64,000 nucleotides of DNA from the NCBI RefSeq assembly GCF_045037415.1, contig NZ_CP173438.1. One strand, written 5' to 3'. This stretch comes from Escherichia coli (lineage in GTDB: Bacteria; Pseudomonadota; Gammaproteobacteria; Enterobacterales; Enterobacteriaceae). Positions 34,401 through 37,400 of this stretch are shown one piece after another (position 1 is the first letter of the stretch; each line of letters begins with the position of its first letter). The position numbers are program-made.

Positions 34401-37400
34401 GTTATCCCGATGATTACCGGGGCGACAATCCTGTGCTTCTCCTTTACCGGTTTTGACGGCATCAGCAACCTGTCGGAAGAAACCAAAGATGCAGAGCGCG
34501 TGATCCCGCGTGCGATTTTCCTGACCGCGCTGATCGGCGGCATGATCTTCATCTTTGCAACTTACTTCCTGCAGCTGTACTTCCCGGATATCTCTCGTTT
34601 TAAAGATCCGGATGCGTCACAGCCTGAAATCATGCTGTACGTTGCGGGTAAAGCGTTCCAGGTTGGCGCGCTGATCTTCTCCACCATTACCGTACTGGCG
34701 TCCGGTATGGCGGCGCACGCAGGCGTTGCGCGTCTGATGTACGTAATGGGTCGTGACGGCGTGTTCCCGAAAAGCTTCTTCGGTTATGTACACCCGAAAT
34801 GGCGTACTCCGGCGATGAATATCATCCTGGTTGGCGCGATTGCCCTGCTGGCAATCAACTTCGACCTGGTAATGGCTACGGCGCTGATTAACTTTGGTGC
34901 GTTGGTGGCGTTCACCTTCGTTAACCTGTCGGTCATCTCGCAGTTCTGGATCCGTGAGAAGCGTAACAAAACGCTGAAAGATCACTTCCAGTATCTGTTC
35001 CTGCCGATGTGTGGTGCGCTGACCGTTGGTGCGCTGTGGGTTAACCTGGAAGAAAGCTCAATGGTTCTGGGTCTGATCTGGGCTGCTATCGGTCTGATTT
35101 ACCTGGCTTGCGTAACCAAGAGTTTCCGTAACCCGGTTCCGCAGTACGAAGACGTAGCGTAATCTTACAAACCGGATGACATAATCATCCGGTAAATCTC
35201 AAAAAGCCGGAGTTTGTCGCTCCGGCTTTTTTGTTGTGCACAGAAAACCCCCAGCTAGGCTGGGGGTTCCGGAAAGCTTTCAGCTTTGAGCCAGTTATTA
35301 AAACCCCTTTTGATTTGTTAAAACACCTTGCGGTCTGGCAACTGCAAGTGTCAAACAAGAAATCAAAAGGGGGTCCCAATGGGGAACGAAAAGAGCTTAG
35401 CGCACACCCGATGGAACTGTAAATATCACATAGTATTTGCGCCAAAATACCGAAGACAGGTGTTCTACAGAGAGAAGTGTAGAGCAATAGGCTGTATTTT
35501 GAGAAAGCTGTGTGAGTGGAAAAGTGTACGGATTCTGGAAGCTGAATGCTGTGCAGATCATATCCATATGCTTGTGGAGATCCCGCCCAAAATGAGCGTA
35601 TCAGGCTTTATGGGATATCTGAAAGGGAAAAGCAGTCTGATGCCTTACGAGCAGTTTGGTGATTTGAAATTCAAATACAGGAACAGGGAGTTCTGGTGCA
35701 GAGGGTATTACGTCGATACGGTGGGTAAGAACACGGCGAAGATACAGGATTACATAAAGCACCAGCTTGAAGAGGATAAAATGGGAGAGCAGTTATCGAT
35801 TCCCTATCCGGGCAGCCCGTTTACGGGCCGTAAGTAACGAAGTTGGATGCAAATGTCAGATCGTGTGCGCCTGTTAGGGCGCGGCTGGTAAGAGAGCCTT
35901 AAAGGCGCATTTGAAAAACCTCCGGCTATGCCGGAGGATATTTATTTTCAGACGATCTCTTCCGCGTACTGCCAAAGCGCTTTTAACAGCGCCACTTTCT
36001 CTTTGTCATCGGCATACTGTTGTGCCAGCATCTGCAATTCATCAGCATAGCCCTGCAAAAACTCTGGCGTGAAGACCTGGCGGCGGTGCTCCAGCCAGCG
36101 TTGCTGCTCGGCATAATCCAGCGTCCCCGGGAAGTTGCGCGCTCGATAATTGAACAACAGTTTTTCAATTCGTTTATCAACAAAAGTGATATCCAGTGCC
36201 GGTAAATTACGCGGCTCGGTTTCCAGCACAATTTTCATTGCTGCACGATCGGCGTCACTGAAAAAGCCATTATAAAGCTGTGCATCCACGTTATCTGAAG
36301 GTGTAAACGGTTCGGCTTCCGCGAATATCGCCACCACTTTTTCACGCACTTGCGGATTTTCACGCAGAATTTTTAGGTTATCGAGGCAATGCTGACGATT
36401 AATTCCCAGTCGGTCGGCATCTTCCGGGCGTAGCGTATTCGCCTGGGCCAGTACCGGACATTTATTGATATGCACCAGCTTAACCGGAACGGCGGCGTTA
36501 TCGCCAAGATCGGCTTTTGCGGTATATAAACGCTCGCGCAATGTGTCGCTATCCAGCTCCAGTAATGGCGAAATGTCTCCTGCCAAATCCACCAAAATTA
36601 CGGCATTGCGATTTTCAGGATGCCACGCCAGCGGTGCCACCCAGCTGGTATTGCCACGCCATGCCCCAAACATTCCGGAAACGTGAACTAGGGGTTTCAT
36701 CTGCGGAACATCAATCAACGCCATCAGTTTGTGTTTATTACGATGGGTAAAGAGATAATCAAACAGGCGTGGCTGACGCGTTTTTACCAGTTTCGCCATC
36801 GCAATAGTGGCGTACACATCAGCCATCGCATCGTGGGCGTTGCTATGTTCAATACCATTCGCTTTGGTTAAATGCTCAAGGCGAAAGCTCGGTAGACCGT
36901 CATCATTTTCAGGCCAGTTTATTCCTTCCGGGCGCAGGGCATAACAGGCACGCATAACATCCAGTAAATCCCAGCGCGAGTTATCATGCTGCCAGCTCCA
37001 GGCGTAAGGATCGTAGAAATTACGATAAAAAACGTTGCGTGTGACTTCGTCGTCGAAACGCACATTGTTGTAGCCCAGAATACAGGTCTTCGGTACGGTA
37101 AAAAGCGAGTGAATACGGGCGGCAAACGCGGCTTCGTTTTCTCCTTTCGCCCGTGCCTCCTGCGGGGTAATACCGGTAATTAATACTGCTCCAGGCTGGG
37201 GTAAATAGTCATCCGCGGGCTTGCAGTAAAAGACTTCGGGTTCGCCGATGACATTGAATTCGTTATCAGTGCGAATGGCTGCGAACTGTGCAGGGCGATC
37301 TAACGCGGGGTGCGTTCCAAAGGTTTCGTAATCGTGAAACAAAAAGGTAGATTGTTGCTTACCGTCATTCATCATTAGGTTAAATCCGTTATTTCTGCTG

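What the first reader, a model, noticed from the sequence alone, without database searches (positions are those of the whole stretch)
35185..35947. IS200-family element in the plaP-sbcB interval where K-12 carries yeeD-yeeE
Only about 790 bp separate plaP and sbcB. This space is filled by an IS200-type element (152-aa Y1 transposase, characteristic left-end hairpin) nested between the terminator hairpins of plaP and sbcB. From memory, K-12 has the thiosulfate-uptake genes yeeE-yeeD here. Their absence with an IS200 in their place suggests a lineage-specific deletion or replacement. IS200 is also uncommon in E. coli.
Basis: partly seen in the sequence, partly recalled or inferred. Interest (0 to 1): 0.35.

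Follow-up and report, generated by a model that had tools for sequence, protein, structure and literature searches.

The report
IS200C insertion between plaP and sbcB
This is an ordinary, already annotated copy of the small insertion sequence IS200C, sitting just after the plaP terminator in E. coli ST131; it did not remove the thiosulfate-uptake genes yeeE/yeeD, because close relatives without the element lack those genes too.

Summary
The element is real. A 712-bp IS200C lies at window 35236-35947. It has a 152-aa Y1 (HUH) transposase, the IS200 left-end hairpin, the structured 5'UTR (Rfam STnc490) and a right-end hairpin.

The window is an E. coli O25b:H4 ST131-type chromosome. The same insertion, 100% identical, is in about 430 of 5426 complete E. 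coli genomes, including EC958 and JJ1887. RefSeq already annotates it as IS200C.

The IS did not replace them:
- About 780 further genomes, including UTI89 and SCU-122, have neither the IS nor tsuAB. They have only a 73-bp spacer.
- Removing the 712 bp from the window restores that spacer exactly.
- The same spacer occurs in E. albertii and E. whittamii.
- tsuAB is present or absent at this exact slot across many Enterobacteriaceae.

The tsuAB difference is therefore an old presence/absence polymorphism. Whether it arose by gain or loss is unresolved.

The right-hand "sbcB terminator" belongs to the IS. IS200 is not rare in E. coli: 38% of complete genomes hold a near-full copy. All nine copies examined sit directly after a terminator hairpin and T-run.

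Both the IS200-like insertion at this site and strains lacking yeeDE were reported in 2011. The finding is ordinary and already known.

The parts
33804..35162 (+). plaP (putrescine/H+ symporter), the upstream gene in the same orientation whose terminator was the insertion target
   Evidence: ORF; Pfam AA_permease; RefSeq annotation of an ST131 record (NZ_OY019088.1) that is 100% identical across window 34600-36500
35163..35235 (.). Native 73-bp plaP-sbcB spacer. It holds hairpin 35174-35194 and the bidirectional terminator hairpin 35206-35226, flanked by an A-run (35201-35205) and a T-run (35227-35232). It ends in the TT (35234-35235) that abuts the IS left end.
   Evidence: Identical to the whole spacer of IS-free genomes SCU-122 and UTI89. 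Folds at -19.6 kcal/mol over 40 nt. Orthologous spacer in E. whittamii, E69 and E. albertii.
35236..35947 (+). IS200C, 712 bp, from GTGCACAG to ATTTATTT. A 2-bp TT ambiguity means the insertion could equally be placed at 35234-35945 or 35235-35946.
   Evidence: Empty-site alignment. Eight other copies at unrelated loci share exactly these ends at 98.3-99.7% identity. It is the only copy in the window.
35246..35268 (+). Left-end perfect hairpin (IS nt 11-33). This is the IS200 bidirectional terminator and the presumed TnpA-binding left-end palindrome. It is preceded by GAAAA, the presumed guide sequence.
   Evidence: Fold. Corresponds to 'nts 12-34' of Salmonella IS200 in PMC4513863.
35246..35369 (+). 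Match to Rfam RF01405 STnc490, the IS200 tnpA 5'UTR and its antisense RNA art200
   Evidence: 146.4 bits against a gathering score of 56, E 3.5e-31, full-length model match
35304..35372 (+). 5'UTR stem-loop (IS nt 69-137) that pairs with most of the Shine-Dalgarno sequence AAGGGGGT (35367-35374)
   Evidence: Fold, z-score -5.8. Matches 'nts 69-138' and the SD sequence quoted in PMC4513863.
35379..35837 (+). tnpA, a 152-aa Y1/HUH transposase. HUH motif is H61-I62-H63 (35559-35567) and the catalytic Tyr is Y125 (35751-35753). The copy carries R34C (private among the nine copies) and L89P (shared with two other copies).
   Evidence: Pfam and NCBIfam. Alignment to solved TnpA structures 2EC2, 2F4F and 2A6M (IS608). 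Y125F is the catalytically dead mutant in PMC4513863. Copy-to-copy comparison.
35919..35937 (.). Right-end hairpin of IS200C, 10 nt from the right end and preceded by GAAAAA. It is predicted to terminate transcription on both strands, so it now lies where sbcB transcripts would end.
   Evidence: Terminator scan hits on both strands. Conserved in all nine copies. Fold.
35948..37375 (-). sbcB (exonuclease I). Its stop codon (35948-35950) directly abuts the IS right end.
   Evidence: ORF; Pfam RNase_T and Exonuc_X-T_C; RefSeq annotation

Best explanation
Bases 35236-35947 are one intact copy of IS200C, a tnpA-only member of the IS200/IS605 family.

Shown:
- It is a clean 712-bp insertion into the native 73-bp plaP-sbcB spacer. 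It sits immediately 3' of the TT that ends the T-run of the plaP/sbcB bidirectional terminator, and it abuts the sbcB stop codon.
- It has no terminal inverted repeats, and no target duplication is needed to explain the junctions.
- It carries a Y1 transposase with an intact HUH motif and Tyr125, subterminal hairpins at both ends, and the IS200 5'UTR/antisense RNA module.
- The same insertion, 100% identical, is present in about 430 complete E. coli genomes, including named O25b:H4-ST131 strains. In many of the best-matching genomes it is the only IS200C copy.

Inferred from what is established for IS608 and Salmonella IS200:
- It arrived once in an ancestor of this lineage by single-strand 'peel and paste' transposition. 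TnpA bound the end hairpins of the top strand.
- The A-rich bases just 5' of each hairpin (GAAAA, GAAAAA) act as guides that pair with T-rich cleavage and target sites. This would explain why all nine copies examined sit right after a terminator hairpin and T-run.
- It has since been nearly immobile. Expression is held down by the upstream host terminator, its own left-end terminator, the structure that sequesters the SD, and art200/Hfq.

The absence of tsuA/tsuB (yeeE/yeeD) is a separate and older matter. The short spacer is an allele shared by about 22% of complete E. coli genomes, including UTI89 (B2 from my own knowledge), and by E. albertii and E. whittamii. tsuAB is a cassette that is present or absent at this same slot across Enterobacteriaceae. 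Whether gain or loss came first is unresolved.
For: Element identity: Pfam and NCBIfam; Rfam STnc490; alignment to IS608, ISDra2 and Sulfolobus TnpA structures, with HUH and Tyr aligned; end folds.

Boundaries and clean insertion: empty site; nine copies with identical ends.

Terminator targeting. All 9 left flanks end in TT. All 9 fold into hairpins of -13.7 to -19.8 kcal/mol over 40 nt, against -1.0 to -11.7 for the right flanks. Eight of 9 have at least 6 T in the last 8 nt. Every copy has the same orientation as the upstream gene. A 2025 preprint reports that terminator-like sequences upstream of ISs are strongest for IS200/IS605.

Distribution: (430-431 genomes, top hits include EC958, JJ1887 and O25b:H4-ST131 records, mostly one place per record).

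Independence from tsuAB: IS-free, tsuAB-free genomes; 1212 short junctions, 4209 with tsuAB; outgroup spacers; SMS-3-5, phylogroup F from my own knowledge, has tsuAB.

Literature: PMC3158064 reports an IS200-like element between sbcB and yeeF in strain PV57 and three strains lacking yeeD/yeeE. PMC4513863 gives the IS200 anatomy and regulation. PMC5934647 and PMC5027513 give the IS608 guide/target pairing and lagging-strand targeting.

Orientation: GC skew of the + strand is +0.033, consistent with the IS top strand being the lagging-strand template. This is weak evidence.
Against: Nothing contradicts the identification.

Open points:
- A 2-bp TT ambiguity at the junction means a 710-bp element with a 2-bp duplication cannot be told apart from a 712-bp element with none.
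- The guide/target pairing is by analogy with IS608 only. The left-end geometry differs: the hairpin is 10 nt from the end here, whereas I recall a larger distance for IS608 and did not check it.
- This copy carries R34C and L89P in TnpA, so it may encode a weakened transposase. L89P copies do occur at two other loci.
- A single origin of the 430 insertions is inferred from identical sequence and site, not from a phylogeny. An IS200-like element at the same interval in O157:H39 PV57 could mean the site is hit repeatedly.
- Mutual exclusivity of tsuAB and the short junction rests on totals, not on genome-by-genome checks.
Confidence: 0.93

Rival explanations
1. IS200 removed or replaced yeeE-yeeD in this lineage: the IS inserted and an adjacent deletion took out the cassette.
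For: Only the coincidence that the IS occupies the interval where K-12 has tsuAB.
Against: Removing the IS restores to the base the 73-bp spacer of IS-free genomes that also lack tsuAB. About 780 genomes have that state. The spacer is shared with E. albertii and E. whittamii. IS200/IS605 transposition is a precise single-strand cut-and-paste that is not known to produce adjacent deletions (family knowledge; PMC5027513). No tsuAB fragment flanks the IS.
Confidence: 0.02
2. The tsuAB-less spacer is a recent clean deletion private to phylogroup B2 E. coli, independent of the IS. On this reading the similarity to the E. albertii and E. whittamii spacers is convergent or comes from recent transfer.
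For: SMS-3-5, usually placed in phylogroup F near B2, has tsuAB. K-12 tsuA is about as diverged from Citrobacter tsuA (about 78% nt) as sbcB is (about 80%), which fits long vertical residence of tsuAB in the E. coli lineage.
Against: The spacer is orthologous over its whole length in three other Escherichia lineages, and divergence grows with species distance (B2 versus whittamii 3 differences; albertii is more diverged and 6 nt longer). The two bases at the very end of sbcB track the allele type rather than the species. There is no long imported tract from E. whittamii around the junction. Presence/absence at the same slot recurs in Citrobacter, Kluyvera, Kosakonia and others.
Confidence: 0.12
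3. The fixed copy is no longer just a passenger. It has been co-opted in ST131, either as the terminator for sbcB or as a source of trans-acting small RNAs (5'tnpA, art200), as described for Salmonella.
For: It is conserved at 100% identity, and is the only copy in many of the best-matching genomes. The right-end hairpin is a predicted terminator on the sbcB strand, directly after its stop codon. The STnc490 module is intact. There is Salmonella precedent for trans regulation by the IS200 5'UTR (PMC5435999 and PMC12594629, listed).
Against: Identity across a recent clone is expected without selection. IS200 is known to be nearly immobile, so persistence needs no function (PMC4513863). There are no expression data here. 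The Salmonella targets (invF, SPI-1) have no counterpart in E. coli, from my own knowledge.
Confidence: 0.08

Closest known systems
IS200 of Salmonella enterica (707 bp; Lam & Roth; Beuzon & Casadesus; Ellis et al. 2015, PMC4513863)
   Same: Single tnpA gene of 152 aa with HUH and Tyr125. Left-end terminator hairpin at about nt 11-34. Stem-loop sequestering the SD at about nt 69-138, with SD AAGGGGGU. Antisense/5'UTR RNA family STnc490. Right-end hairpin. No inverted repeats.
   Different: This is the E. coli isoform that RefSeq names IS200C. It measures 712 bp by empty-site comparison, against the quoted 707 bp. The copy carries R34C and L89P in TnpA.
IS200-like element between sbcB and yeeF in E. 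coli O157:H39 strain PV57 (Iguchi et al. 2011, PMC3158064)
   Same: Same kind of element in the same intergenic interval, in a strain that also lacks yeeD/yeeE.
   Different: Different serotype. I could not compare the sequences (AB602252 is not in the collections), so whether it is the same insertion by descent, by recombination or by a second hit is unknown.
IS608 (Helicobacter pylori) and ISDra2, the mechanistic models of the IS200/IS605 family
   Same: Homologous Y1 transposase (E 3e-17 to 2A6M, with HUH and Tyr aligned). Subterminal hairpins. Insertion 3' of a short target kept on the left flank. Right-end cleavage site 10 nt 3' of the hairpin, which for IS608 I state from recollection.
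   Different: There is no tnpB. The target is a T-run ending in TT, not TTAC or TTGAT. The presumed guides are A-runs. The left-end hairpin is only 10 nt from the end. The hairpins are perfect rather than imperfect palindromes.
IS1541 (IS200G) of Yersinia
   Same: Close relative with the same RNA module, per PMC4513863. A weak Rfam hit to a Yersinia sRNA covers the right-end hairpin.
   Different: IS1541 is present at about 40 copies per genome and is reported as active during infection. Here the element is single-copy and apparently static.

Membership tests
IS200/IS605 family, IS200 group | Encodes a Y1 HUH transposase (Pfam Y1_Tnp; NCBIfam transpos_IS200) | tested here: met
   PF01797 at 122.9 bits against a cutoff of 23. 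NF033573 at 140.6 bits against a cutoff of 55.
IS200/IS605 family, IS200 group | Catalytic HUH motif and C-terminal catalytic tyrosine are intact | tested here: met
   H61-I62-H63 and Y125 align with the HUH and Tyr of IS608 TnpA 2A6M and with Sulfolobus 2EC2/2F4F. Y125F is the catalytically dead mutant in PMC4513863.
IS200/IS605 family, IS200 group | No terminal inverted repeats; subterminal hairpins at both ends | tested here: met
   The ends GTGCACAG and ATTTATTT are not complementary. Hairpins lie at 35246-35268 and 35919-35937, each 10 nt from an end.
IS200/IS605 family, IS200 group | Inserts 3' of a short specific target on the left flank without target duplication | tested here: inconclusive
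   All 9 left flanks end in TT, and the empty-site comparison is compatible with no duplication. A 2-bp TT duplication cannot be excluded because the element also ends in TT.
IS200/IS605 family, IS200 group | tnpA only, about 0.7 kb, no tnpB | tested here: met
   712 bp with a single ORF matching a transposase family.
IS200/IS605 family, IS200 group | IS200-specific 5'UTR/antisense RNA module (STnc490/art200) | tested here: met
   RF01405 at 146.4 bits against a gathering score of 56, full length.
IS200/IS605 family, IS200 group | Transposes through a circular single-strand intermediate | not testable with these tools
   Inferred from family membership only (PMC5027513).
IS200C isoform (ISfinder name) | Near-identity to the ISfinder IS200C reference sequence | not testable with these tools
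   No ISfinder copy is available. RefSeq PGAP names the tnpA product in NZ_OY019088.1, which is 100% identical to the window across this interval, 'IS200/IS605-like element IS200C family transposase'.
IS-mediated deletion or replacement of tsuAB (yeeED) | Relatives without the IS retain the genes at the site | tested here: not met
   SCU-122 and UTI89 have neither the IS nor tsuAB. About 780 such genomes exist.
IS-mediated deletion or replacement of tsuAB (yeeED) | Truncated remnants of the lost genes, or altered flanks, next to the IS | tested here: not met
   The flanks equal the intact 73-bp spacer to the base.
Lineage-specific loss of tsuAB | Outgroup species carry the genes at the site | tested here: inconclusive
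   E. albertii, E. whittamii, E69 and S. arizonae lack them. Several Citrobacter, Kluyvera and Kosakonia genomes have them. E. fergusonii, E. marmotae and E. ruysiae were not among the 80 loci returned.

The most novel reading that the evidence does not exclude
The single IS200C copy kept at 100% identity in E. coli ST131 has been co-opted. Its right-end hairpin now terminates sbcB, and its 5'UTR/art200 RNAs act in trans on host genes, as the IS200 5'UTR does in Salmonella.
Probability: 0.07. Interest if true: 0.4.

Novelty: already known. Interest (0 to 1): 0.08.

Why it matters
It matters little. The insertion is a stable marker of the O25b:H4 ST131 lineage and is already annotated in hundreds of RefSeq genomes.

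The useful outcome is the correction. The missing thiosulfate-uptake genes tsuA/tsuB are not an IS-caused loss. They belong to an old presence/absence polymorphism in a recombination-prone region next to the his and O-antigen loci. About a fifth of complete E. coli genomes, including UTI89 (B2 from my own knowledge), lack this uptake route (function per PMC11073785, listed; I did not read the paper).

The nine insertion sites also illustrate cleanly that IS200C lands right after intrinsic terminators. That fits a guide/target pairing rule known from IS608 but, as far as I found, not tested for IS200.

Tried and rejected
- IS-caused deletion of tsuAB: rejected by the empty-site genomes.
- Right hairpin as sbcB's own terminator: rejected, because it is conserved inside all nine IS copies.
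- Other IS200 copies or fragments in the window: none.
- Rfam hit to Yersinia Ysr202 at 35914-35985: 30 bits against a gathering score of 315. It covers only the terminator-like hairpin and is not a family member.
- Sigma-70 promoter scan of 35100-36000: nothing found, consistent with the weak, undefined tnpA promoter.
- Recent import of the tsuAB-less allele from E. whittamii: sliding identity shows E. coli-like flanks and no long imported tract. Only the two bases at the sbcB stop track the allele type.
- Recent import of tsuAB into K-12-type strains from a sampled genus: tsuA is about as diverged from Citrobacter as sbcB is, so there is no sign of recent transfer. Gain versus loss stays unresolved.
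- Phylogroup mapping through reference genomes was only partly done. UTI89 lacks tsuAB and SMS-3-5 has it. UMN026 is not in the collection. The IAI39 guess landed in a large inverted region.
- Literature search for yeeE/yeeD with phylogroup gave one paper. One search failed on a term that was too short.
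Full report
**What is in the sequence**

plaP ends at 35162 and sbcB, on the minus strand, has its stop codon at 35948-35950. The two genes are therefore 785 bp apart. The gap contains one ORF that matches a protein family, at 35379-35837, encoding 152 aa. It matches Pfam Y1_Tnp (E 1e-35) and the NCBIfam equivalog transpos_IS200 (140.6 bits against a cutoff of 55).

The protein aligns with solved TnpA structures from Sulfolobus, IS608 and ISDra2 (E 4e-22 to 5e-14). His61-Ile62-His63 lies on the HUH motif and Tyr125 on the catalytic tyrosine. Y125F is the catalytically dead IS200 mutant used by Ellis et al. 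(PMC4513863).

Upstream of the ORF, Rfam family STnc490 (the IS200 5'UTR and its antisense RNA art200) matches 35246-35369 at 146 bits against a gathering score of 56. Folding gives three features:
- a perfect hairpin at IS nt 11-33;
- a long stem-loop at nt 69-137 that pairs with most of the Shine-Dalgarno sequence AAGGGGGT;
- a hairpin at 35919-35937, 10 nt from the right end.

The first two coordinates match the published anatomy of Salmonella IS200, which gives nts 12-34 and 69-138.

**Exact boundaries**

The window is an E. coli O25b:H4 ST131-type chromosome. The 1.9 kb around the finding is 100% identical to many ST131 records. The whole 64 kb is colinear with NZ_OY019088.1, with 324 mismatches in an ungapped comparison.

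I aligned the window with an IS-free genome, SCU-122. The difference is a clean 712-bp insertion at 35236-35947 into a 73-bp plaP-sbcB spacer. A 2-bp TT ambiguity remains at the junction.

Eight other IS200C copies from unrelated loci all start GTGCACAG and end ATTTATTT. These copies sit downstream of dgcZ, carB, metG, wzzB (twice), uhpT, nagE and patD. They are 98.3-99.7% identical to this copy.

In IS-free genomes a single hairpin at 35206-35226, flanked by an A-run and a T-run, serves both convergent genes. The IS sits between that hairpin and the sbcB stop codon. Its right-end hairpin is predicted to terminate on both strands, so it probably now ends sbcB transcripts. That last point is inference.

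**Target choice**

All nine left flanks end in TT. All nine fold into strong hairpins, at -13.7 to -19.8 kcal/mol over 40 nt, against -1.0 to -11.7 for the right flanks. Eight of the nine have at least 6 T in the last 8 bases. In every case the IS points the same way as the upstream gene. IS200C therefore lands immediately after intrinsic terminators.

In IS608, the four bases 5' of each end hairpin act as guides that pair with the cleavage and target sites (PMC5934647). Here those bases are GAAAA at the left end and GAAAAA at the right end, and the cleavage sites are T-rich. My inference is that A-run guides select T-run targets. This is an analogy and was not tested.

A 2025 preprint reports that terminator-like sequences upstream of ISs are strongest for the IS200/IS605 family, so the pattern is not new. 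The + strand has a positive GC skew. That is consistent with the IS top strand lying on the lagging-strand template, as the family prefers (PMC5027513), but the evidence is weak.

**Distribution**

Exactly this insertion with both flanks occurs in 430-431 of 5426 complete E. coli genomes. The best 60 records are all 100% identical and include EC958, JJ1887, MNCRE44 and several records labelled O25b:H4-ST131. Most of those records show only one match, so this is the only IS200C copy in many of them.

IS200C in general is common. Of the 5426 genomes, 3096 have a match and 2063 have a copy covering at least 80%, with up to 35 places per genome. Ellis et al. counted 2.9 copies per E. coli genome on average.

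This copy has two private differences among the nine compared: R34C in TnpA, and T to A at IS nt 667. It also has L89P, shared with two other copies. Whether these weaken the transposase is unknown.

**The yeeE/yeeD question**

The IS did not take the place of these genes.
- 1212 genomes have the short plaP-sbcB junction. About 430 of them carry the IS, so about 780 have the bare 73-bp spacer. UTI89 is one of these (B2, ST95 from my own knowledge).
- 4209 genomes have tsuAB, with a median of one place per genome.
- The two classes sum to 5421 of 5426. They look mutually exclusive and nearly exhaustive, so tsuAB is not hiding elsewhere in the short-junction genomes. This rests on totals and was not checked genome by genome.

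A scan of one genome per species gave 80 plaP loci.
- plaP lies directly next to sbcB in 'E. coli E69', E. whittamii, E. albertii, Salmonella arizonae and many Citrobacter and Enterobacter.
- tsuAB lies in exactly the same slot in other Citrobacter, Kluyvera, Pseudocitrobacter, Kosakonia and others.
- The two C. youngae genomes differ from each other.

The B2-type spacer is orthologous to the spacers of E. whittamii (3 differences), E69 and E. albertii (more diverged, 6 nt longer). The two bases at the very end of sbcB follow the allele type, not the species.

Two observations point the other way on polarity. SMS-3-5 (phylogroup F from my own knowledge) has tsuAB. K-12 tsuA is about as diverged from Citrobacter tsuA (about 78% nt) as sbcB is (about 80%).

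The tsuAB difference is therefore an old presence/absence polymorphism in a region with clear recombination mosaicism. For example, the 3' end of sbcB in SMS-3-5 is highly divergent. I cannot say whether gain or loss came first. Either way it has nothing to do with the IS.

**Prior knowledge**

RefSeq annotates the element as IS200C in every matching genome. Iguchi et al. 2011 (PMC3158064) reported an IS200-like element between sbcB and yeeF in O157:H39 strain PV57, and three strains lacking yeeD and yeeE. A 2022 survey lists the IS200C transposase among accessory genes of an ST131 lineage (PMC9837563).

**Verdict**

It is wrong on cause (no replacement or deletion by the IS), probably wrong on scope (not a deletion private to this lineage), and wrong on rarity. 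The feature is an ordinary, already annotated insertion sequence. Interest is low.

Noticed in passing
window 33804-35162 (plaP); loci L012-L091: plaP is much more conserved than its neighbours. K-12 against E. albertii gives 96% nt for plaP but 86-88% for yeeY and sbcB. K-12 against Salmonella arizonae and some Citrobacter gives 88-90% nt (up to 99% aa) for plaP but 76-81% for neighbours. Species fall into two plaP classes (96-100% vs 87-90% aa) that do not follow genus; for example, two Enterobacter cloacae strains differ. This suggests unusual constraint or exchange between genera.
   Followed up: partly
L026-L090, slot between the plaP terminator and the sbcB stop: The tsuA-tsuB cassette is present or absent at exactly the same slot in many Enterobacteriaceae, even between two C. 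youngae genomes (L031 absent, L038 present). It looks like a cassette swapped by homologous recombination between conserved flanks.
   Followed up: partly
L099 (E. coli SMS-3-5) 13477-13720, sbcB 3' end: From about 50 nt inside the gene, the 3' end of sbcB in SMS-3-5 is far more divergent from other E. coli than E. whittamii or E. albertii are. This is a local recombination import next to the tsuAB slot.
   Followed up: no
window 35379-35837: This IS200C copy carries R34C, private among the nine copies compared, and L89P, which places a proline at a position that is Leu in three aligned TnpA structures. L89P copies also occur at two other loci, so the variant has moved or been moved in trans.
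   Followed up: partly
window about 41200-64000: Beyond yeeA-tmaR lies an island. It has CP4-44-like genes (cbtA/cbeA, yeeT, yeeW), an ISEc12 insertion that splits a hypothetical gene, a dynamin-family, RdcB-family and patatin-like gene trio, a TonB-dependent receptor with an ABC transporter, and an IS66-family ISEc23. This is read from the annotation of the colinear record NZ_OY019088.1. A similar island sits at the same place in SMS-3-5.
   Followed up: no
window 15633-16862 (+), O25b O-antigen cluster: The colinear ST131 record annotates a frameshifted hypothetical gene here, at record 846676-847738. The window has one uninterrupted ORF of 409 codons across the interval.
   Followed up: no
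L094, L097, L098, L099 (IAI39 and SMS-3-5): In both IAI39 and SMS-3-5 the mukB-serS region lies at about 2.2-2.3 Mb and reads in the reverse order. In SMS-3-5 the his/rfb/plaP region is at about 1.05 Mb. This points to a large inversion relative to K-12, UTI89 and EC958.
   Followed up: no
L096 2237-3402 (UTI89 dacD): dacD, two genes from the site, is annotated as a frameshifted pseudogene in UTI89.
   Followed up: no
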